Shown: positions 28,418-37,438 of the stretch, piece after piece
Layout of the letters: each line of letters starts with the position of its first letter
Position numbering within the stretch: the stretch's first letter is position 1
Origin: Patescibacteria group bacterium
GTDB taxonomy: Bacteria; Patescibacteriota; Patescibacteriia; Magasanikbacterales; JBBTQS01
Reading direction: 5' to 3'
Length of the DNA stretch: 39,010 bases
Assembly: GCA_038065555.1 (NCBI GenBank)
Contig: JBBTQS010000001.1
Coordinates: 322,741-361,750 of the forward strand
The notes under the pieces: generated by a model
Database searches by the model: none
What the model was told of the DNA's origin: nothing
The model's input: only the letters and a program-made list of their open reading frames with translations
Position numbers and translations under genes: made by a program

Positions 28418-28753
28418 TCACGGAGTTCGCAGCTGCCTCCATTTGGCTGCGATCCCTCGACCAATCCAGCGGAAGAACTGCTGTGTGCGAGGCCAGCCCG
28501 TGCGAACCCAGGCAGCCCAGACCCAGCGACCAATCGCACGTGCCGCGTCACGCACCAGCGGCCAAACGCGCCTCCACACGAACTTCACAGCCCCTGTGAT
28601 GATCTTCCAAACGATTGCCAGCATGCTCTGGATGAGCCGCACAGCAAACGTCTGATTGATCCGCGCGCTCTTCTTTGGTCCCATGAACATGGTCATGAAG
28701 GCCGCAGCCATGATCCAGAGGAGAAGCAGTGGCCCCACGAGTTGTTCGAGCAT
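28418..28753 (-). CDS. 111-aa membrane protein with a Trp/Arg-rich amphipathic tail
   Basis: SD AAGGAG 5 nt before ATG; N-terminal TM helix. Confidence 0.7.
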   Translation of the reverse strand: MLEQLVGPLLLLWIMAAAFMTMFMGPKKSARINQTFAVRLIQSMLAIVWKIITGAVKFVWRRVWPLVRDAARAIGRWVWAAWVRTGWPRTQQFFRWIGRGIAAKWRQLRTP

Positions 28754-28763
28754 GAGCTCTCCT

Positions 28764-29141
28764 TCAGTCGTGCACACGTCTCCAGAGACGAAACTCTCCC
28801 ACTTCAGAGTTATAGCTCAGAATGAAGTCCGTCGCCCTGTACAGTAGCTGTGGCTGATGGTAGAGCATCACCGGGTGGTCCTCGCAGAAGTACACGTCGA
28901 CAATCACATTATCTGGGGAATCGTCCTTGTAGTGCCCCGCGACGCAATGCACCTTCAGGAAGGTGACCTGTGCATTCTCGACGGTCACGGTAATCTCCTT
29001 GAAGGGAAACAGATCCCCCGAGTGAATATGACGGTCGAAGTCCCCGACCAGATTCCGATTCAACACCGCAGCGGCGACTGCATAACACTCTGCACCAGAC
29101 TTTTCCAAGGTGCGCTCGACACTACTCAGGATCTCGTCCAT
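28764..29141 (-). CDS. 125-aa hypothetical protein
   Basis: SD GGAGG (29151-29147) 5 nt before ATG; own promoter. Confidence 0.7.
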   Translation of the reverse strand: MDEILSSVERTLEKSGAECYAVAAAVLNRNLVGDFDRHIHSGDLFPFKEITVTVENAQVTFLKVHCVAGHYKDDSPDNVIVDVYFCEDHPVMLYHQPQLLYRATDFILSYNSEVGEFRLWRRVHD

Positions 29142-29190
29142 GTCACCCTCCGACTCATGCATTCGAACACACCTCGTGCTCGAATGGCAC

Positions 29191-29219
29191 ATACTATCAC
29201 TTTTCACCATTTTTGTCAA
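29191..29219 (-). promoter_or_regulatory. sigma70-type promoter of the two-gene cassette
   Basis: TTGACA-17 nt-(TGa)TAGTAT. Confidence 0.75.
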
Positions 29220-29246
29220 CGCAACCAGCGCATGAAGTTTCATAAT

Positions 29247-29296
29247 AAAAAAGTGCCCGACAGACAAGATCCAATGGATCAAGATCTGCCGAGCAC
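29247..29296 (-). terminator. intrinsic terminator
   Basis: gtgctcggcaga...tctgtcgggcac followed by T6. Confidence 0.8.
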
Positions 29297-29307
29297 CAAG
29301 TAGCCAA

Positions 29308-29329
29308 GCCTGCCTGCCGGTAGGCAAGT
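29308..29329. repeat. REP-like palindrome (CCTGCCTGCCGGYAGGCARG type)
   Basis: gcctgcctgccggtaggcaagt imperfect palindrome in the 3' UTR. Confidence 0.5.
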
Positions 29330-29340
29330 TGCGAAGGTTG

Positions 29341-29967
29341 TTACTCCTCGACGAACTCCGGCACCGCACAGCTCCGATACGCAGTCCCACGGTCGCCCGC
29401 ACCCACGCCGAACTCGCGATCGTCAGTGTCGACCCACGCACTCGGCACGAGGCGAGGCTTGCCGCCGGAGACCTTGCATTCGAGACCAGCCATCCACAGG
29501 AACGGATGTTCAGCGGAGCCGTTCATGCGTCTCGCGACCTCTGGATGCTGCGCGAGCATCGAGATGATCTCACGACCTGGCATCTGACGCCCGTCCTTGA
29601 GCACGTTCTCCGGCGATTGCCCGTAATTGGCGGTGCGCCGGATACGAACCCAGCGCTGTCGCCAGCTCGGATACTCGACATTACCACACAAGAAGAGACG
29701 CTCGGGGTCGGTCATGAACTCCGACCACCAACTCTTGTTCTGCTGCTCGGCGGCCCACGACCAGGTAAACAAGATCTCCACGTTGAGCGTCGAGAACGAG
29801 CGATCGAGCACCACGGCCTCACCCCGGTCGTCTGAGAAGAGGCGCGGATGAGGCGATCCGTCCCAGACGAACTTCTTCGGATTGATCCCCATAGCGGAAC
29901 ATCGCGCGTCGTAGTTGGCGATGACCTCGGAGAGCGGAGTGTACATATGATGAATGAGCTGTGGCAC
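29341..29967 (-). CDS. hypothetical protein, possibly C-type-lectin-like fold (start GTG 29967 or ATG 29979)
   Basis: GGAGG 5 nt before GTG; MLAQHPE...PFLWMAG...VPSAWVD...AVPEF. Confidence 0.75.
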   Translation of the reverse strand: MPQLIHHMYTPLSEVIANYDARCSAMGINPKKFVWDGSPHPRLFSDDRGEAVVLDRSFSTLNVEILFTWSWAAEQQNKSWWSEFMTDPERLFLCGNVEYPSWRQRWVRIRRTANYGQSPENVLKDGRQMPGREIISMLAQHPEVARRMNGSAEHPFLWMAGLECKVSGGKPRLVPSAWVDTDDREFGVGAGDRGTAYRSCAVPEFVEE

Positions 29968-29995
29968 GTTGACCTCCATGGTTGTGTGTGCGCCT

Positions 29996-30463: not shown

Positions 30464-30973
30464 CTATTCTTTGTCAAACTGGATTATGACGGGGTCCCCG
30501 ATCTTCCAGCCATTGGCTATGGCATACCCAGCAGGCACCTCCAGAACCATATCTGCTGGCAATCTGGGGAAATACCGCGGAAGCTCGGATTCTGGCGTGT
30601 CAGGGTGCGCAGGTGCTGGGACTTCGGGTGCAATATCCACGATCTTGCCCTGGAAGATCCAGACAATATCAATGGGGAAATGCATCCCCTTCATCCAGAA
30701 CCCTTTTTGCCCAGGCTCTGCAAAGACGAAGAGCATCCCCTCTCCATTCTTGAGCAGGAGTCTCCCTCCTAATCCCAACTGCTGCTCTTTCGCAGAGTTC
30801 GCAATATCCACCGTCACCACTGCTTCACGGATGCGCACCGTAGCCAGAGGATCACCCCACTGTCTGATGGTGAGATAGAGAAAAGCAATACCAAAGAGCA
30901 CCAAAAATCCAATGACTACTTTTTTGTTGGGCGGTTTGACTTGTTTGTCCTTGTTGCGTCGGAAGAGTCCCAT
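30464..30973 (-). CDS. DUF192-family protein with N-terminal TM
   Basis: GLGGR...GMLFVF...FWMKGMHFPIDIVWI...VLEVPAG. Confidence 0.88.
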   Translation of the reverse strand: MGLFRRNKDKQVKPPNKKVVIGFLVLFGIAFLYLTIRQWGDPLATVRIREAVVTVDIANSAKEQQLGLGGRLLLKNGEGMLFVFAEPGQKGFWMKGMHFPIDIVWIFQGKIVDIAPEVPAPAHPDTPESELPRYFPRLPADMVLEVPAGYAIANGWKIGDPVIIQFDKE

Positions 30974-31980
30974 AGAATAACAGCGGCGATGCCCCAGGTA
31001 AGGAGCACAATCGCGAGAATAGTAATTGCCTTTTGCCACGGTGATGCCACGAGCGTCGTGACGCCGAACGTAATTGCAAAGGCGTAGAGCATGAGCACGG
31101 TTGCACGATGACTAAATCCAGCGCGCAACAGGAGATGGTGCAGATGCGTGGAATCTCCAGAGGTGATAGGTGCGCGACGCACAAAACGCATGACTGCAAC
31201 ACGAATCATATCGGCGACAGGCACGCCCAGCACAAGGAGTGTCGTGGCGATTTTGCTCCCAGACACAATGGCGCAGGTTCCAAGGAGGAATCCAAGGAGC
31301 ACACTTCCACCTTCACCCAAGAAGATAGAAGCTCTATGAAAATTATACACCAGAAATCCGATACACGCGCCTGCAACTGCAGCAGCGAGTGCTCCGATGT
31401 CTGGTTGCCAAAATAATGCAGTAGCAGTAAGCGCAACAATCATGAGCGAGCCAATTGCGCTGATCCCCGTTGCAAGTCCGTCGAGTCCGTCGAGCAATTT
31501 GGTTGTGTACATGAGCACCATGAACCACAACCACGTTACAGGCAACGAGATGAGCGTAGGTAATTCGATCACACCTGTACCTAACGGATTCGTGACCGTA
31601 TCAATACGCACCCCCACAATGACCATGATTACCGCAGCAGCACTCGGGAACAATATCTGAATGTGCGGCGGCAACGAATAGCGATCATCGAAGTAGCCAC
31701 CAATCATGAGTAACCCTGATGCAATCAACAACCCAACAAGCAATCGTGTGGAGAGTGCTTCAAACACTGTGGGATAGAAAACCAACCCAGCTGCAATTGC
31801 TGTGACAAATGCTACCCACACAGCCACACCACCGAGCAGTGGTGTGGGGCGTGCGTGCTGTTTGCGTGGAAGTGTAGGTGCATCAAGAATACCGAGCGCT
31901 CGCGCTGCAATGCGCAAGAGCGGGGTGAGTACGAGTGCAGCAGCAAGTGCTACGAGGAATGTGACCACTGCTGCTTCCAT
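30916..31980 (-). CDS. WecA/TagO-like polyprenyl-phosphate GlcNAc-1-P transferase (MraY family)
   Basis: PTPLLGG, GYFDDRY, LDGLDGLA, IFLGEGG, HLHH. Confidence 0.9.
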   Translation of the reverse strand: MEAAVVTFLVALAAALVLTPLLRIAARALGILDAPTLPRKQHARPTPLLGGVAVWVAFVTAIAAGLVFYPTVFEALSTRLLVGLLIASGLLMIGGYFDDRYSLPPHIQILFPSAAAVIMVIVGVRIDTVTNPLGTGVIELPTLISLPVTWLWFMVLMYTTKLLDGLDGLATGISAIGSLMIVALTATALFWQPDIGALAAAVAGACIGFLVYNFHRASIFLGEGGSVLLGFLLGTCAIVSGSKIATTLLVLGVPVADMIRVAVMRFVRRAPITSGDSTHLHHLLLRAGFSHRATVLMLYAFAITFGVTTLVASPWQKAITILAIVLLTWGIAAVILWDSSDATRTNKSNRPTKK

Positions 31981-31985
31981 ACACG

Positions 31986-34721
31986 TTAGGCAGTTTGTTC
32001 GATACGGACACCCTCATTTGTGAAGTGCACAGTGTCCCCACGATGCACCTTCTTGGAGAGAAGGAGCTCGGCAATAGTATTCTCGACACGATCCTGGATC
32101 ACACGGCGCAGCGGACGCGCACCAAATTGCGGATCAAATCCTGCATCAGCGAGATACATGAGGATATCCTCATCAATAACCAACCCAATCCCCTGACCAT
32201 CCAGACGCGCAGCAATTGATTTGACCATGATAGATGCAATACGACCGATCTCACTCTTGTCGAGTGCGCGGAAGAGTACAACGGCATCAAATCGGTTCAA
32301 GAATTCAGGGCGATACCACTCAGACAACTTGCCGCGCATGAGTGCTTCCTGAATCACGGGGAACGTCGTCCCCTTTGCCATTTCCTCTTGCACGAATTGT
32401 GTGCCTGCGTTACTGGTGGCGATGAGAATAATATTGGTGCAATCAATCGTCACACCGGTGCTGTCTGTGAGTCGTCCATCATCCATGACCTGGAGGAACA
32501 GGTTGAGCACATTGGGGTGTGCTTTTTCTAACTCGTCGAGAAGGAGGAGTGCAAATGGCTTTTCTTTGATGGCTTCGGTGAGAACGCCACTTCCCTTCAC
32601 ACCCGCCTGACCAATGAGTCGCATTGCACTCGATGCATCCTGATATTCAGACATGTCGAGACGAATCATCTGCTTCTCGCCACCGAAGTACACTTCGGCA
32701 ACGGTCTTGGAGAGCTCGGTCTTACCCACACCTGTCGGTCCGAGGAAGAGGAAGTTGGCGATCGTGCGCTTGCCACCGGTGAGCTGGGCACGTGAACGGC
32801 GCAGTGCTGCAGCAACTTCGCGAACCGCTTCTTCCTGTCCTATCACACGCTCGTGCAGTGCACTTTCCAGACGCAATAATTTTTGTGACTCATCTTCGGT
32901 TACTGCTGTGACAGGAATCTTGGATTTGTCGGAGACAATCTTGGCAATGTCTTGTGCGGTAACAAGCGCGTCTTTGCCACGAGACGTTTTGACAGCTTCT
33001 GCTGCTTCCTTGATCACGGCGATGGCTTTGTCTGGGAGCTTGCCTTCGTGGATGTAGCGGCTGGAGAATTGCGCTGCAGTCTCAATAGCTGCGTACGAGA
33101 ACCAGATTCCGTGTTCATACTCAATATACCCAGCCTTTGCCTCGAGAACGTGGATTGTTTGATCCACGCTCATCTCTGGCACATCAACGCGCGAGAACGC
33201 TGATGAAATAGAAGTGCTCTGTATATACCGACGATACGCCTCAGGCGTTGTTGTTGCGAACATGAGGAACGATCCAGATTGCAATTCGCGAGCAAGTACT
33301 CCCGCGACATCGAGACTCCCTGCATCCCCTTCACTCACACCGACAATGTTCTCGATGTTAGGAATGAACAGGATGATATTACCCGCGCGATGTACTTCAT
33401 TGAGTACATGCAGCAATCGCTCCTGTGCGATAGCTGGTGTTGCGCCTGCGAGCAATCTCGCAGCGGTCAGCACCATCAAACGCTTGTCTGATAGCACTGG
33501 CGGAACAGATTCTTCAACCATGCGTGTCGCAAGTCCTTCAATAACACTCTCCTTACCAACTCCTTCTTCACCGACAAGCAGTACACTCTTCTTGCCGCCC
33601 TGGAGCGTGCGAAAGACGGTCTGCAATTCATGTTCACGTCCGATGAGTGTACTCGTATAGCCCAGTGCCGCCATTCGCGTGAGATCATCTGCCAACGAAT
33701 CCAAGTATGGTGTTGCAAGCGCTGTCATTGCTCGATTTGTATCACCCTTCGGACGACGGCGAGCTGCTTCGCGACGACGTGACCATGCTTCACGCAATTG
33801 GAGACGAACGCGAACCCATGCAATGACGTTATCCATCTGACGATTGTCTACACCCAAATCAGTCAGGACTTTTGAGAACGGTTCGACGAGATGGTACACG
33901 CTTGCAAGCATATCTCCCAACCCAACGTAATTCTGACGCTGCGCCTGCGCTTCGATATATGCATGGAAAAAAATCGCAACCGATTCTGCGCTGTATGCAG
34001 GAGCGCGACCTTGCGAAGTATTTGCGCCATTTTGTTGTTGTACGAGACTGAGTACTTCGTTGACAGACACTCCGAGGCGCACGAAAATTCCCTGAATCTC
34101 TGGGAAATGCATGAGTGCTTGCAACACATGGTATGGACTGACCGTTGCTGCACCAAGTCGCTCTGCAATAGCGTACGCATCCTCAGTAGTGCGGATAGCA
34201 TCAGCAGAAAAACTTTGTGCGATGTCATGCCGCTGGGCCACACCATGCCAACCACTTGCGCCCCATGGATGAGCCAACCCTTCTGCAATTTCCTTCGGGG
34301 CGTCTTCCCACAGTTCATGAACTGGAATAGGAACTGATCGACGCTGATTGCGCACCACACGCATCATGCCGTAGAGCACTGCGAGCATGCTGATCCAAAA
34401 TCCTGTAACAACCGGCTCCCCACTTACCCAGAATGACGACGTGAACACGGCAAACGGTGTTTCGCGAAGTGTGAAAAGGAGCAGAAGCCACATGACAATC
34501 CCTGACCCAAAGGCGAGGAATGTGAGCACGCCACCGACTTTGTTGAGCAAGATACGAGTACGAATTGCGCGGTGGGTCAATTCGCGTCCCCAATACAGGA
34601 ATACACCTTCATGCTGCACACCAGAAAACGCTCCACGACATTGCGTGCAGGCGCTATCAGGTCGCCCCGCCGGCAAGCAGGCGGGACACACGGCAAGCGA
34701 AGGTGCGGTAGTCTGAGGCAT
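31986..34721 (-). CDS. membrane-anchored ClpA/ClpB-family AAA+ ATPase with degenerate NBD1
   Basis: CPAC..CTQC, 2 TM helices, Clp-N; NBD1 GEEGVGKES/ILFIPN; NBD2 GPTGVGKTE, RLDMSEY, LDELEKAH, RPEFLNR, GARPLRR. Confidence 0.9.
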   Translation of the reverse strand: MPQTTAPSLAVCPACLPAGRPDSACTQCRGAFSGVQHEGVFLYWGRELTHRAIRTRILLNKVGGVLTFLAFGSGIVMWLLLLFTLRETPFAVFTSSFWVSGEPVVTGFWISMLAVLYGMMRVVRNQRRSVPIPVHELWEDAPKEIAEGLAHPWGASGWHGVAQRHDIAQSFSADAIRTTEDAYAIAERLGAATVSPYHVLQALMHFPEIQGIFVRLGVSVNEVLSLVQQQNGANTSQGRAPAYSAESVAIFFHAYIEAQAQRQNYVGLGDMLASVYHLVEPFSKVLTDLGVDNRQMDNVIAWVRVRLQLREAWSRRREAARRRPKGDTNRAMTALATPYLDSLADDLTRMAALGYTSTLIGREHELQTVFRTLQGGKKSVLLVGEEGVGKESVIEGLATRMVEESVPPVLSDKRLMVLTAARLLAGATPAIAQERLLHVLNEVHRAGNIILFIPNIENIVGVSEGDAGSLDVAGVLARELQSGSFLMFATTTPEAYRRYIQSTSISSAFSRVDVPEMSVDQTIHVLEAKAGYIEYEHGIWFSYAAIETAAQFSSRYIHEGKLPDKAIAVIKEAAEAVKTSRGKDALVTAQDIAKIVSDKSKIPVTAVTEDESQKLLRLESALHERVIGQEEAVREVAAALRRSRAQLTGGKRTIANFLFLGPTGVGKTELSKTVAEVYFGGEKQMIRLDMSEYQDASSAMRLIGQAGVKGSGVLTEAIKEKPFALLLLDELEKAHPNVLNLFLQVMDDGRLTDSTGVTIDCTNIILIATSNAGTQFVQEEMAKGTTFPVIQEALMRGKLSEWYRPEFLNRFDAVVLFRALDKSEIGRIASIMVKSIAARLDGQGIGLVIDEDILMYLADAGFDPQFGARPLRRVIQDRVENTIAELLLSKKVHRGDTVHFTNEGVRIEQTA

Positions 34722-34727
34722 GTACAA

Positions 34728-35084
34728 CTAAAGAAAAAGTGGAGCGAAAATAAAATACAACACAGCAAGCGGCGCAACACACCAGAGCAACACAACAACG
34801 GCGTACCAAACCGCCGCAAATCCAAACACAATACACCGAGCTATTACTTGGAACAGTCGGATGAAGAAACTGATAATACGACCCTGCCAATCATACTGCC
34901 CGAACATTGGCACCATGATATTGCGCATCCACAAACTAATGGCGAGGCGATACCACGTACGCGCAGATCGTTCGCGCATCCAACGCAGCATGAATGCGAG
35001 TCCGCCGGTGTACCACCACACTGGACCCGTAATAGCTTCAACAAGAAGGAGTTGCACTACGTGTTGGAGAAGGGCGATGGACAT
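34728..35084 (-). CDS. small membrane protein co-transcribed with the Clp ATPase
   Basis: PVWWYTGG, PMFGQYDWQGRIISFFIR; TGgTATACT 8 nt before ATG. Confidence 0.8.
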   Translation of the reverse strand: MSIALLQHVVQLLLVEAITGPVWWYTGGLAFMLRWMRERSARTWYRLAISLWMRNIMVPMFGQYDWQGRIISFFIRLFQVIARCIVFGFAAVWYAVVVLLWCVAPLAVLYFIFAPLFL

Positions 35085-35144
35085 ACGCGACTAGTATACC
35101 AAAATAATTGCATTTCGCCCATGCAGCGTGTGGGAGCAAAAGCA

Positions 35145-35528
35145 CTATCGATGGGCAACAGGCTGTTGCGTCAACGTCACGGCGAAGGTGACGCCGTCAA
35201 TGGGCACCATGTTGAGATTGCGCACACGCTCGCTCACACGGCGAAGCGATCCTTGTTCCGCGATATGAATCTGCATGCGCTCATTCGTGTCGCGCAGTGC
35301 AGTTACTTCGCGCTCCACACGCTTGAGCTCATACCCTTTTGTCGAAACACTGCTCATAACACCGATATAGGCCACACCTATGACCGCGATCAGTGACAAG
35401 ACCAGTATACGCGCACCCGTTGACTCAACTGCCCATGCAGCTGCACGTCGCACTACGGCAAAAATCGCACTGCGCGTACGGGACGGCTGTGCATTTGCTA
35501 CTGAATGATAGGAGGCTTGGAACTTCAT
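35145..35528 (-). CDS. ftsL: FtsL-like cell division protein
   Basis: TM helix, then STKGYEL...coiled coil; follows rsmH. Confidence 0.7.
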   Translation of the reverse strand: MKFQASYHSVANAQPSRTRSAIFAVVRRAAAWAVESTGARILVLSLIAVIGVAYIGVMSSVSTKGYELKRVEREVTALRDTNERMQIHIAEQGSLRRVSERVRNLNMVPIDGVTFAVTLTQQPVAHR

Positions 35529-36406
35529 ACACGTTTTTTCTCTACCACGCGCACTTTGGCGCTGCGTGCACGAGGGTTCTCGAGCACTTCGTCGCGCGTT
35601 GGTTCGATTGGTTTCTTCGTAATCACATTCACATCTGGGTGGATGGAGAAGCAACGCTTCACAATGCGATCCTCGCCCGAATGGAATGTGATGACAGCGA
35701 GTCGCCCACCTGGCGCCAAAATATTGATAGCACCCAAGAGTCCTTCTTGGAGCGCACCGAATTCGTCATTTGCAGCGATACGCAACGCCTGGAATACGCG
35801 CGTTGCTGGATGAATCTTGCCACGAGGTCCACGAGTTACTCGCATGATCACGCGTACGAGATCTTGCGTGGTAGCAATTGGATTCTTGTGGCGCTCGCCA
35901 ACAATGGCACGAGCAATATTCATTGCGTTCTTCTCATCAGCGTACCGAGAGAAGAGCACAGCCAACTCTTGTGGCGATCGCGTTGCGAGAATATCTGCAG
36001 CAGTTTCTGTGCCCGAAAGACCAGCATCAAACCGCATATCCAGCGGCTCATCCCCTTCGAACGAAAATCCGCGACCTCGTTCGTGGAACTGCGGAGTCGA
36101 CCACCCGAGATCGAGCAGCACTGCATCTACTTTTTCGTTGAGCACGTCTTCGACAACTGCCTGAATGTTGCGAAATGATTCGCGAACAAAGGCAACGCGT
36201 GATCCATACTCAGCGAGATAGTGCTTGCTGCGCAAAATCGCTTCAGGGTCTGCGTCGATTCCAATGAGTCTTCCTCGCGGCGCTGTTGCCGCCAGGATAA
36301 TCTCCGCATGCCCAGCATCGCCCAGTGTTCCGTCCACGACGGTAGCATTGGGCGAGAGCTGCAATGCGGTGAGCACCTCTTGTCGCAACACAGGAATATG
36401 GCGCAT
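35525..36406 (-). CDS. rsmH: 16S rRNA m4C1402 methyltransferase
   Basis: HIPVL, DGTLGDAGH, RGFSF..DEPLDMR, HPATRVFQALRI, FHSGEDRIVK, NPRARSAK. Confidence 0.97.
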   Translation of the reverse strand: MRHIPVLRQEVLTALQLSPNATVVDGTLGDAGHAEIILAATAPRGRLIGIDADPEAILRSKHYLAEYGSRVAFVRESFRNIQAVVEDVLNEKVDAVLLDLGWSTPQFHERGRGFSFEGDEPLDMRFDAGLSGTETAADILATRSPQELAVLFSRYADEKNAMNIARAIVGERHKNPIATTQDLVRVIMRVTRGPRGKIHPATRVFQALRIAANDEFGALQEGLLGAINILAPGGRLAVITFHSGEDRIVKRCFSIHPDVNVITKKPIEPTRDEVLENPRARSAKVRVVEKKRV

Positions 36407-36409
36407 AGA

Positions 36410-36850
36410 CTATGCGATTCCCAGATTCCCGAGCTGTTCGGCGATCGAAGCCGAATCTTTTTCTGTCGCGCGCTTGTACGTTTCCCAGGCAGTCTTGTCC
36501 CAGAGCTCGAGACGGTCGTAGAGTCCTGCGACCACTGTCTCGCGCGTGAGCGTAGCAAACGTGCGCAAATATTCCGGAAGCAGGATACGACCCTGGCTGT
36601 CCAATCGCAGTTCCATAGCGCCCGCAAGCATGAGACGGGCGAAGGCACGCGAATGCGCCTGGTTCATCGGGAGGTTCGCGAGTTGCCGCGCGAGCGCTTC
36701 CCAACGCTTCCGTGTGTAGACAAAGAGACACGCATCAATGCCACGCGTCACGACGAGCCCCGCACGAAACGCTGCGCGAAATGAGCCAGGTATTGCTACT
36801 CGGCCCTTTTCGTCCATCGTGTGCTGATACTCCCCTATGAACATGGACAT
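36410..36850 (-). CDS. mraZ: transcriptional regulator MraZ
   Basis: MFIGEYQHTMDEKGRVAIP, LDSQGRILLP, RLELW. Confidence 0.97.
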   Translation of the reverse strand: MSMFIGEYQHTMDEKGRVAIPGSFRAAFRAGLVVTRGIDACLFVYTRKRWEALARQLANLPMNQAHSRAFARLMLAGAMELRLDSQGRILLPEYLRTFATLTRETVVAGLYDRLELWDKTAWETYKRATEKDSASIAEQLGNLGIA

Positions 36851-37006: not shown

Positions 37007-37438
37007 CTAGCGAGCGCTCACGGTTCCAAGCAACGACTTGAACTCTGTCTCACACCGAACAAACCCCGCTGGGTTGTCCAATGCCATGTGTACGTCAGTC
37101 TCCAGAAGATGCGCATCCATGCGAACTGGATTATTGTTGTCCTTGTAGAAAGTCAGATTAAATCCGTGATCACCGATCTTTTGTGTTTCGGTTGTTGATT
37201 TCCAACTACGACCGACGGTCTTGTTATCTTGCGCGTAGAGATAGATCAGGCATTCGCCATCCGTGAGTACAGGAGCAGAGCCACGCTCCTCGTGTCTGTA
37301 ATTCTCTGGAATACGAACGTGCCACGCGTCACCAATAGCTACTGAGCCAGCTGGGACAGTAGAAGTCTCTGTTGCACCACAACCAGCGCCTACAAGTGCG
37401 AGTGTCGCGATCAGGGCAACTTTCCAATGATTTTGCAT
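37007..37438 (-). CDS. lipoprotein of unknown function
   Basis: Lipobox LALVGAGC. Confidence 0.8.
   Translation of the reverse strand: MQNHWKVALIATLALVGAGCGATETSTVPAGSVAIGDAWHVRIPENYRHEERGSAPVLTDGECLIYLYAQDNKTVGRSWKSTTETQKIGDHGFNLTFYKDNNNPVRMDAHLLETDVHMALDNPAGFVRCETEFKSLLGTVSAR

What the first reader, a model, noticed from the sequence alone, without database searches (positions are those of the whole stretch)
30464..35098. Membrane-tethered Hsp100/Clp ATPase with a degenerate first ring and a small membrane partner
Seen: N-terminal CPAC...CTQC, two TM helices and a Clp-N region. NBD1 has Walker A GVGKES (usually GKT/S) and Walker B ILFIPNIE (usually ILFIDEIH), so the catalytic acidic pair is lost. 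NBD2 is intact. There is no ClpB middle domain and no IGF/LGF ClpP-docking loop (ATSNAGTQF). The gene starts 6 nt after a 118-aa membrane protein and is followed by a WecA-like enzyme and DUF192. Inference: a ClpP-independent membrane unfoldase/extractor or translocation motor acting on envelope complexes.
Basis: partly seen in the sequence, partly recalled or inferred. Interest (0 to 1): 0.7.

Follow-up and report, generated by a model that had tools for sequence, protein, structure and literature searches.

The report
Two-part membrane motor of Patescibacteria
These two neighbouring genes encode a predicted membrane-anchored relative of the Clp protein-unfolding motors and a small predicted membrane partner, found side by side or fused across much of the ultra-small Patescibacteria; the motor keeps one full set of ATP-splitting residues but lacks the loops such motors use to pull proteins through, so it likely reshapes a membrane complex by a different, still untested route.

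Summary
In detail: a 911-aa class I Clp/Hsp100 paralog with a Cys4 motif, two predicted TM helices, Clp-N, a degenerate first ATPase ring, no middle domain and no IGF loop, 6 nt after a 118-aa membrane protein. One correction: ring 2 keeps all seven catalytic residues (105 of 105 homologs) but has lost the Tyr pore loop, and ring 1's aromatic loop is gone too, so 'unfoldase/extractor' is doubtful. The partner domain occurs in 245 of 401 sampled phylum genomes. In all 107 handle loci examined it lies directly upstream of (83) or fused to (24) this Clp, which forms one clade apart from canonical ClpB/ClpC. Ring-1 decay is graded: 14 of 24 fused forms keep the Walker motifs. WecA/DUF192/mraZ synteny is class-level only. 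The probable Southlakia ortholog pair is non-essential in published Tn-seq, with at most a mild late defect. Complex prediction gives weak support (0.47, best control 0.00). Best reading: a ClpP-independent, non-threading membrane-remodelling ATPase with an obligate partner; target unknown. I found no description in print (five searches). This scan reported the family before on seven other genomes.

The parts
34728..35084 (-). Small partner gene, 118 aa: predicted helical hairpin with amphipathic helices, a conserved WWY motif and Pro-containing turn, and one long hydrophobic helix (about residues 85-117, kinked at P105). No Pfam or NCBIfam family.
31986..34721 (-). Membrane-anchored class I Clp/Hsp100 paralog, 911 aa (an alternative TTG start at 34727 adds 2 aa)
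34638..34688 (-). Cys4 motif, residues 12-28; putative zinc site resembling half of a DnaJ-type finger; present in only part of the family
   Evidence: 41 of 97 relatives have it, 0 of 20 fused forms; PF00684 hits below cut-off in 20 of 25 fragments
34467..34529 (-). Predicted TM helix 1 (residues 65-85)
34353..34415 (-). Predicted TM helix 2 (residues 103-123), followed by basic residues
33852..34223 (-). Divergent double Clp-N region (about residues 167-290)
33666..33845 (-). Family-specific helix and linker between Clp-N and NBD1 (residues 293-352; W302 in 94 of 105, T333 in 81 of 105)
32922..33665 (-). NBD1, degenerate: Walker A Lys kept; Walker A Thr, Walker B Asp-Glu, both arginine fingers and pore aromatic lost in this protein
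32022..32909 (-). NBD2 with D2-small domain: Walker A, Walker B, sensor 1, arginine finger and sensor 2 all intact
   Evidence: 105 of 105
32577..32621 (-). Shortened NBD2 pore loop (residues 701-715), four residues shorter than in the genome's own ClpB and ClpC and without the Tyr
32337..32420 (-). Region after sensor 1 (residues 768-795), without the ClpP-docking IGF-type loop
30916..31980 (-). Context only: GT4/WecA-like polyprenyl-phosphate sugar transferase; syntenic within the class, not across the phylum
30464..30973 (-). Context only: DUF192 protein (start codon uncertain; ORF open to 31039)
35145..36850 (-). Context only: mraZ (36410-36850), rsmH/mraW (35525-36406) and an ftsL-like gene (35145-35528; NF053549 below cut-off) upstream

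Best explanation
The two genes likely encode one membrane-bound machine in which a predicted hexameric, Clp-derived ATPase binds a small membrane partner and would use ATP hydrolysis in ring 2, without threading a polypeptide, to remodel or disassemble a membrane complex. Shown by sequence: obligate pairing or fusion, invariant ring-2 catalytic residues, loss of both aromatic pore loops, of the middle domain and of the ClpP-docking loop, and a dead ring 1 in this lineage. Predicted: two TM helices with the ATPase in the cytoplasm, and direct contact with the partner. Inferred: a ring, because the trans-acting ring-2 arginine finger is invariant; ring 1 as a nucleotide-binding scaffold, because its Walker A Lys survives; force passed from ring 2 through ring 1, the family-specific linker and Clp-N to the partner's amphipathic hairpin at the membrane face; and a housekeeping rather than heat-shock role. 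The target is not identified.
For: Pairing: 40 of 40 order-level loci, 60 of 60 phylum loci with 40 adjacent and 20 fused, 7 of 7 further loci with 3 adjacent and 4 fused. In 80 named records, 75 were adjacent, 4 had too little DNA and 1 was an exception (these overlap the handle genomes). All 10 longer proteins holding the partner domain are AAA fusions. Seven NBD2 catalytic positions are invariant in 105 of 105. NBD2 pore Tyr: 15 of 15 canonical, 1 of 105 family. NBD1 loop window has no aromatic residue in 89 of 98. Pore-loop tyrosines matter for substrate processing in ClpA/ClpB/Hsp104 (PMC5540906), and Torsin and Bcs1 are precedents for loop-less, membrane-associated AAA+ proteins (PMC5425593; PMC7994207). 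One clade, SH-aLRT 100, apart from 15 canonical Clps. CIRCE box upstream of 0 of 105 family loci against 6 of 13 canonical loci and the genome's own ClpB. Complex prediction scored 0.47 against best control 0.00, weak support: the mark was reached by 116 of 157 solved and 2 of 215 mismatched pairs, but at 0.60 or under by only 18 of the 157 and by both mismatches; runs agree in at least 79% of contacts; partner pLDDT 76.
Against: No biochemical data, and no substrate. Eight of 102 parsed members keep a near-full-length or aromatic-containing NBD2 loop, one with a GYVGY string, so threading may persist in some or use other residues. Ring 1 keeps both Walker motifs in 18 of 105. The probable Southlakia orthologs are non-essential; their 2.5-fold and 5-fold read declines resemble those of some genes called non-essential, and the small gene abuts the essential murT promoter region. 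One genome has the small gene unlinked from its two family Clps. Loci were chosen through partner hits, which favours finding pairs. Neighbouring genes give no phylum-wide clue to the target.
Confidence: 0.5

Rival explanations
1. A threading extractor or unfoldase (Msp1-, FtsH- or ClpB-like) that pulls membrane proteins through its pore using non-canonical residues, with the small protein as adaptor.
For: Double-ring Clp fold (top matches ClpC and ClpB), membrane anchor, Clp-N region, intact NBD2 catalysis. Eight of 102 members keep a longer or aromatic loop.
Against: The NBD2 loop is deleted at the Tyr column in 97 of 105, and its replacement is short, Gly-rich and variable. No conserved family-specific aromatic residue appears within either loop. 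The genome already has canonical ClpB and ClpC.
Confidence: 0.2
2. A Bcs1-like gated translocase: the TM helices of both proteins would form a ring through which a folded protein or other bulky cargo is moved by concerted ring motion.
For: Bcs1 is membrane-anchored and lacks the substrate-contacting pore loop (PMC7994207). TatC was found in only 2 of 60 genomes tested. A hexamer would carry about 18-24 TM segments (inference).
Against: Both TatC-positive genomes also carry the pair (2 of 37, against 0 of 23 without), so there is no sign of replacement. Bcs1 lacks sensor 2, whereas this family keeps it. No conserved cargo gene nearby. Non-essential in Southlakia.
Confidence: 0.12
3. A division or budding factor that recycles a membrane-shaping polymer formed by the small hairpin protein (ESCRT-III/PspA with Vps4 logic).
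For: In the window's class the pair follows mraZ-rsmH-ftsL. The partner is a long amphipathic hairpin, and PspA, Vipp1 and ESCRT-III appear among weak fold matches.
Against: Those matches are non-significant (Foldseek E at least 3.9; Z at most 7.8, within the range common for helical hairpins). The partner is fused to the ATPase in 24 loci, which fits poorly with a recycled polymer. The division-cluster context is absent in 55 loci from other classes. Non-essential in Southlakia.
Confidence: 0.1
4. A nucleotide-switched signalling or assembly scaffold with slow ATP turnover and no mechanical work (Torsin-like, or like plant SMAX1-type Clp derivatives, recalled).
For: Loss of pore loops and progressive ring-1 decay. 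Torsins are slow and judged unlikely to translocate processively (PMC5425593).
Against: NBD2 is the most conserved part (mean top-residue frequency 0.62) and keeps its own arginine finger, unlike Torsin. No conserved regulator gene nearby.
Confidence: 0.06
5. A membrane-tethered ClpC-type partner of ClpP, as automatic annotation implies.
For: [quoted passage not shown] ClpP is present in the genome and in 56 of 60 genomes tested.
Against: No IGF-type loop in 0 of 104. A single-contig genome has the fused form and no ClpP match. Pore loops are missing.
Confidence: 0.02

Closest known systems
ClpC / ClpA (class I Clp/Hsp100, ClpP partners)
   Same: Clp-N, NBD1, NBD2, D2-small order. Best structural matches are ClpC (Foldseek E 1e-58; TM 0.87 over the ATPase core). 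Like ClpA it has no middle domain.
   Different: Two predicted TM helices, an obligate membrane partner, no IGF loop, no aromatic pore loops, dead NBD1 in this lineage. All NCBIfam scores are far below cut-off.
ClpB / Hsp104 disaggregase
   Same: Double AAA+ ring and ClpP independence; top NCBIfam hit TIGR03346 at 540 bits against a cut-off of 1232.
   Different: No middle domain, no pore tyrosines, no CIRCE box, membrane anchor. A canonical ClpB exists elsewhere in the genome.
Torsin with LAP1/LULL1 (PMC5425593; abstract and passages read)
   Same: Clp/Hsp100-related, membrane-associated, lacks aromatic pore loops, works with a membrane cofactor.
   Different: Torsin has one AAA+ domain and borrows its arginine finger from an AAA+-fold cofactor. 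This family has two rings, its own ring-2 arginine finger and a helical-hairpin partner. An analogy, not membership.
Bcs1 (PMC7994207; passages read)
   Same: N-terminal TM anchor; lacks the substrate-contacting pore loop; non-threading.
   Different: Bcs1 has a single AAA+ domain closer to p97 D1 and lacks sensor 2. This family is Clp-derived with two rings and keeps sensor 2.
Msp1/ATAD1 and FtsH (membrane-anchored extractors); Plasmodium PTEX HSP101 (all recalled; Msp1 and FtsH seen only in search listings)
   Same: A membrane-tethered or membrane-complex-bound AAA+ motor.
   Different: These thread substrates with aromatic pore loops (recalled), and FtsH carries a protease domain. Neither feature is present here.

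Membership tests
Class I Clp/Hsp100 | Two tandem AAA+ domains with D2-small domain | tested here: met
Class I Clp/Hsp100 | Clp-N repeat domain | tested here: met
   No Pfam hit on this protein, but TIGR02639 aligns from residue 177 and 24 of 24 relatives carry PF02861
Class I Clp/Hsp100 | Aromatic pore loops in both rings | tested here: not met
   NBD2 Tyr in 1 of 105 against 15 of 15 canonical; NBD1 loop without aromatic residue in 89 of 98
Class I Clp/Hsp100 | Catalytic motifs in NBD1 | tested here: not met
   Lost in this protein; Walker A and B both complete in 4 of 81 split and 14 of 24 fused forms; second arginine finger in 1 of 105
Class I Clp/Hsp100 | Hexamer formation and ATP-driven substrate threading | not testable with these tools
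   needs biochemistry or cryo-EM
ClpA/ClpC | IGF/IGL ClpP-docking loop (PMC5540906) | tested here: not met
   0 of 104 parsed against 11 of 12 canonical
ClpB | Coiled-coil middle domain | tested here: not met
   spacing 60-65 aa against 122-202
ClpB/ClpC orthology in Patescibacteria | Groups with canonical ClpB/ClpC in a tree | tested here: not met
   46 family rows form one side of a branch against 15 canonical rows, SH-aLRT 100; no non-Patescibacteria rows were in the tree
Torsin | Arginine finger absent, supplied by an AAA+-fold cofactor | tested here: not met
   NBD2 arginine finger in 105 of 105; partner is a helical hairpin
Bcs1 | Single AAA+ domain without sensor 2 | tested here: not met
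   two domains; sensor-2 Arg in 105 of 105
ESCRT-III/PspA (partner protein) | PspA/ESCRT-III fold with polymer formation | tested here: inconclusive
   only non-significant hairpin matches; no Pfam hit
ClpV/TssH (type VI secretion) | Location in a T6SS cluster | tested here: not met
   no T6SS family among 50 neighbour proteins scanned, which were cluster representatives and selected others; TIGR03345 score 418 against cut-off 885
Anti-phage defence AAA+ systems (PADLOC) | Full-length match plus cognate partner genes | tested here: inconclusive
   only partial NBD2 matches to DolB and PDC-M37B; none for the two partner proteins tested

The most novel reading that the evidence does not exclude
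Patescibacteria rebuilt a Clp/Hsp100 unfoldase into a dedicated two-component membrane gate: a ring of TM helices from the ATPase and its hairpin partner that is opened and closed by concerted ring-2 ATP hydrolysis to move folded or bulky cargo, or to reshape the membrane, without threading. It would be a bacterial counterpart in function of Bcs1 or Torsin, arisen independently from a Clp ancestor, old enough to span the phylum and caught at several stages of ring-1 decay.
Probability: 0.22. Interest if true: 0.85.

Novelty: new variant of a known kind. Interest (0 to 1): 0.62.

Why it matters
Clp/Hsp100 proteins are treated as soluble threading machines. A subfamily detected in about 60% of sampled Patescibacteria genomes has a membrane anchor, an obligate partner and intact ring-2 catalysis but no gripping loops. 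It is hidden under routine 'Clp protease ATP-binding subunit' names and was apparently merged with ClpB/ClpC in family surveys. If it is non-threading, it offers a bacterial model of how a loop-less Clp-type ATPase does work at a membrane, an open question for Torsins. It is testable now: the probable ortholog pair is non-essential in Southlakia epibionticum, a genetically tractable Patescibacterium, so clean deletions and trap mutants can be made.

Tried and rejected
Partner identity: no Pfam family, NCBIfam, PADLOC or PDB sequence match (best E 0.91). Foldseek found nothing at E up to 0.001. VIA-align gave best Z 8.8 (rmsd 4.6, 109 aligned) to generic helical proteins. Atlas neighbours are unnamed clusters. 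None of this shows the fold is new. Partner as a paralog of the Clp's own TM module: rejected, hhalign probability 0.3%. Several independent fusion events: the tree needs 5 changes (at least 2 forced by well-supported branches), but an AU test does not reject one fused clade (p 0.18), so this is not claimed. Tat replacement: no anticorrelation. Heat-shock control: no CIRCE; CtsR-like matches at 2 mismatches in 3 of 105 are taken as chance. Promoter and terminator scans gave 8 promoter-like sites against 5.8 expected and 12 terminator-like against 6.5, none informative. Expression: one RNA run held 0.08 of the words; its contigs cover mraZ to the small gene but not the Clp body, and DNA carry-over cannot be excluded, so this is no evidence either way. 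A base rate of the NE/NE/GD pattern for the whole Tn-seq table could not be counted; in the one part read it is 5 of 61 rows. Range outside the phylum was not properly tested. In one search, 40 of 80 record titles name Patescibacteria lineages, 35 say 'uncultured Gammaproteobacteria', 3 'bacterium' and 2 other genera; five such genomes checked are 0.8-1.0 Mb and no kinship was given. Broad partner alignments were too divergent for the locus scan, so the narrower one was used.
Full report
Observation. The window lies in a 908-kb, 98.8% complete genome whose relatives are named Magasanikbacteria and other Patescibacteria. On the minus strand run mraZ, rsmH, an ftsL-like gene, a 118-aa ORF (35084-34728), a 911-aa ORF (34721-31986) 6 nt later, a GT4/WecA-like gene, DUF192 and rplU. 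The large protein folds as a class I Clp (pLDDT 89.6; top structural matches ClpC and ClpB) but scores far below all NCBIfam cut-offs. The genome separately encodes a canonical ClpB, a ClpC-like protein and ClpP, so this is a third paralog.

I aligned 105 family members (81 split, 24 fused) with 15 canonical Clps from the same phylum. Seven NBD2 positions (Walker A Lys and Thr, Walker B Asp and Glu, sensor 1, arginine finger, sensor 2) are invariant in 105 of 105. The NBD2 pore-loop Tyr is present in 15 of 15 canonical proteins but in 1 of 105 family members, and 97 have a gap there. By a pattern search, 94 of 102 parsed members have no aromatic-type loop, 7 have a near-full-length loop with an aromatic residue and 1 contains a GYVGY string; 3 were not parsed. 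The NBD1 loop window lacks any aromatic residue in 89 of 98. The IGF-type loop is missing in all 104 parsed members (present in 11 of 12 parsed canonical ones), and the middle domain is absent (60-65 aa against 122-202). A review states that pore-loop tyrosines of both NBDs matter for substrate processing and that the IGL/F motif is needed for ClpP binding (PMC5540906, passages). So 'NBD2 intact' is true of catalysis only.

Ring 1 is decaying, not uniformly dead. Walker A Lys is kept in 94 of 105. Walker A and B are both complete in 4 of 81 split and 14 of 24 fused forms, the first arginine finger survives in 16 of 24 fused forms, and the second in 1 of 105. In the window's protein all are lost except the Lys.

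Membrane anchor. 96 of 98 family members have at least one hydropathy peak of 1.6 or more in the first 300 residues, against 0 of 2 controls. In a second set, 7 of 7 family members reach 2.5 or more and 13 of 13 canonical Clps stay at or below 1.57. The second helix of the window's protein is marginal by hydropathy (1.59) but hydrophobic across the alignment. The Cys4 motif occurs in 41 of 97 relatives and in none of 20 fused forms, so it is accessory. It resembles half a DnaJ-type finger, below cut-off.

The partner. It is found in 54 of 61 genomes of the order and, with a broader profile, in 245 of 401 phylum genomes (109 of 401 with the narrow profile). I fetched 40 of the 54 order-level hits, and all have the Clp directly downstream, one with a frameshift. 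I fetched 60 of the 109 phylum hits, 20 of them chosen for their long reading frames: 40 are adjacent and 20 are N-terminal fusions. Seven more loci gave 3 adjacent and 4 fused; an eighth partner-positive genome showed no family-type linker match. Of 80 named records, 75 are adjacent, 4 lack downstream DNA and 1 is unlinked, although its genome has two family Clps. In 26 genomes without the partner, the linker profile found mostly Clp-N-only matches, and the 12 such Clps I fetched were canonical. All 10 longer proteins carrying the partner domain are AAA fusions. The partner is a confident helical hairpin (pLDDT 96.9) with amphipathic helices and one long hydrophobic helix, and it has no known family or significant fold match. 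A complex of the Clp's first 350 residues with the partner scored 0.47 against a best control of 0.00. This is weak support: the mark was reached by 116 of 157 solved and 2 of 215 mismatched pairs, but at 0.60 or under by only 18 solved pairs and both mismatches; runs agree in at least 79% of contacts and partner pLDDT is 76. The fusions are the stronger argument.

Evolution and context. On the ATPase core, 46 family rows separate from 15 canonical rows with SH-aLRT 100 (a subset of 61 of 120 sequences, with no outgroup from other phyla). Fused forms are scattered on that tree, but one origin is not rejected (AU p 0.18). The mraZ-rsmH-ftsL, WecA-like and DUF192 neighbours occur in 24-33 of 40 order loci and 4-6 of 12 class loci, and in 0 of 55 loci from other classes. 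There the neighbours vary: ribosomal genes, prfA/B-type, tgt, murT-gatD, FtsX, PBP. The conserved unit is the pair alone. A CIRCE box lies upstream of the genome's ClpB and of 6 of 13 canonical loci but of 0 of 105 family loci, though an operon promoter further upstream would be missed. One single-contig genome has the fused form without a ClpP match.

Genetic evidence. In the supplementary tables of Wang et al. 2023 (PMC10633639; main-text passages, table rows and one table part read), SEML1_0700 is a 2583-bp 'AAA family ATPase' with a ClpB-type D2, a weak D1 and no Clp_N hit. SEML1_0701 is a 384-bp hypothetical gene overlapping its start, modelled as a helical hairpin, with murT-gatD divergent. 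Locus L111 has the same layout and a matching Pfam profile, so orthology is likely but rests on architecture and synteny, not sequence. Both genes are called NE, NE, GD over three time points. The defect is mild: reads fall 2.5-fold and 5-fold, several genes called non-essential fall as much (canonical ClpC 2-fold), the pattern is seen in 5 of 61 rows read, and insertions in the small gene may disturb the essential murT. The safe conclusion is that the pair is non-essential in laboratory co-culture.

Mechanism. Shown: pairing, motif pattern, clade. Predicted: topology and contact. Inferred: a ring whose NBD2 hydrolyses ATP and moves the membrane part through NBD1, the conserved linker (W302 in 94 of 105) and Clp-N, remodelling a membrane complex without threading (0.5). 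Rivals are a non-canonical extractor (0.2), a Bcs1-like gate (0.12; TatC in 2 of 37 genomes with the pair and 0 of 23 without), a division polymer recycler (0.1), a slow scaffold (0.06) and a ClpP partner (0.02). Torsin (PMC5425593, abstract and passages) and Bcs1 (PMC7994207, passages) are analogies for loop-less membrane AAA+ proteins; membership fails on the arginine finger, sensor 2 and domain number.

Novelty. Five searches aimed at this family (listings only) returned no paper describing it. Term searches found no 'Clp' in the main texts of PMC6744442, PMC10633639, PMC12102498, PMC8080830 and PMC11665869. In the PMC6744442 supplement the rows I saw were ClpP and one general Clp ATPase family (2 of 13 'clp' places shown). 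The library lacks most subscription papers, and bioRxiv supplements were closed. This scan's earlier notes describe the same family on seven other genomes with the same pore-loop reading; I had reached it, and they are not independent support. My data disagree with their claim of a constant cell-wall neighbourhood. Verdict: a real, widespread, apparently uncharacterised variant of the Clp/Hsp100 family; interest 0.62.

Noticed in passing
L032:2633-5370 (G001): The family Clp of the closest relative has a frameshift near codon 202, giving ORFs of 223 and 692 aa; assembly error or pseudogene. An intact 911-aa protein with 80% identity over the N-terminal 360 residues exists (P0212).
   Followed up: partly
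L195:3995-4354, L232, L233 (G455): The only locus with the small gene unlinked from the Clp; this genome has two family Clps on other contigs.
   Followed up: partly
L144 (G063): A single-contig genome rated 100% complete with the fused form and a TatC but no ClpP match.
   Followed up: partly
G000 C1:177346, C1:383207, C2:98392: Three perfect CIRCE boxes in the genome, the first just upstream of canonical clpB; none in the window.
   Followed up: partly
G000 C4:39497-42001: The genome's ClpC-like protein has Ala at NBD2 sensor 1 and a divergent sensor-2 region, and sits on a long branch with L137.
   Followed up: no
window 29341-29979 (-), 28764-29441 (-), 28418-28777 (-), 37007-37438 (-): ORFs near the locus with no Pfam hit at E 0.01; the last has a lipoprotein-like N-terminus by eye.
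   Followed up: no
L111, L125, L110, L124 small genes: These partner proteins carry an insertion of about 17 residues in the hairpin turn (seen for L111 and L125); some fused forms (L143, L144) appear to share it.
   Followed up: no
family f8 of the window's order (G012, G020, G026, G032, G037, G041, G045): A whole family with no partner match (0 of 7) and no family-type Clp found: a natural loss useful for comparative genomics.
   Followed up: partly
record titles: 35 of 80 records holding the partner are titled 'uncultured Gammaproteobacteria'; the three such genomes checked (of five) are 0.8-1.0 Mb, which suggests mislabelled Patescibacteria.
   Followed up: partly
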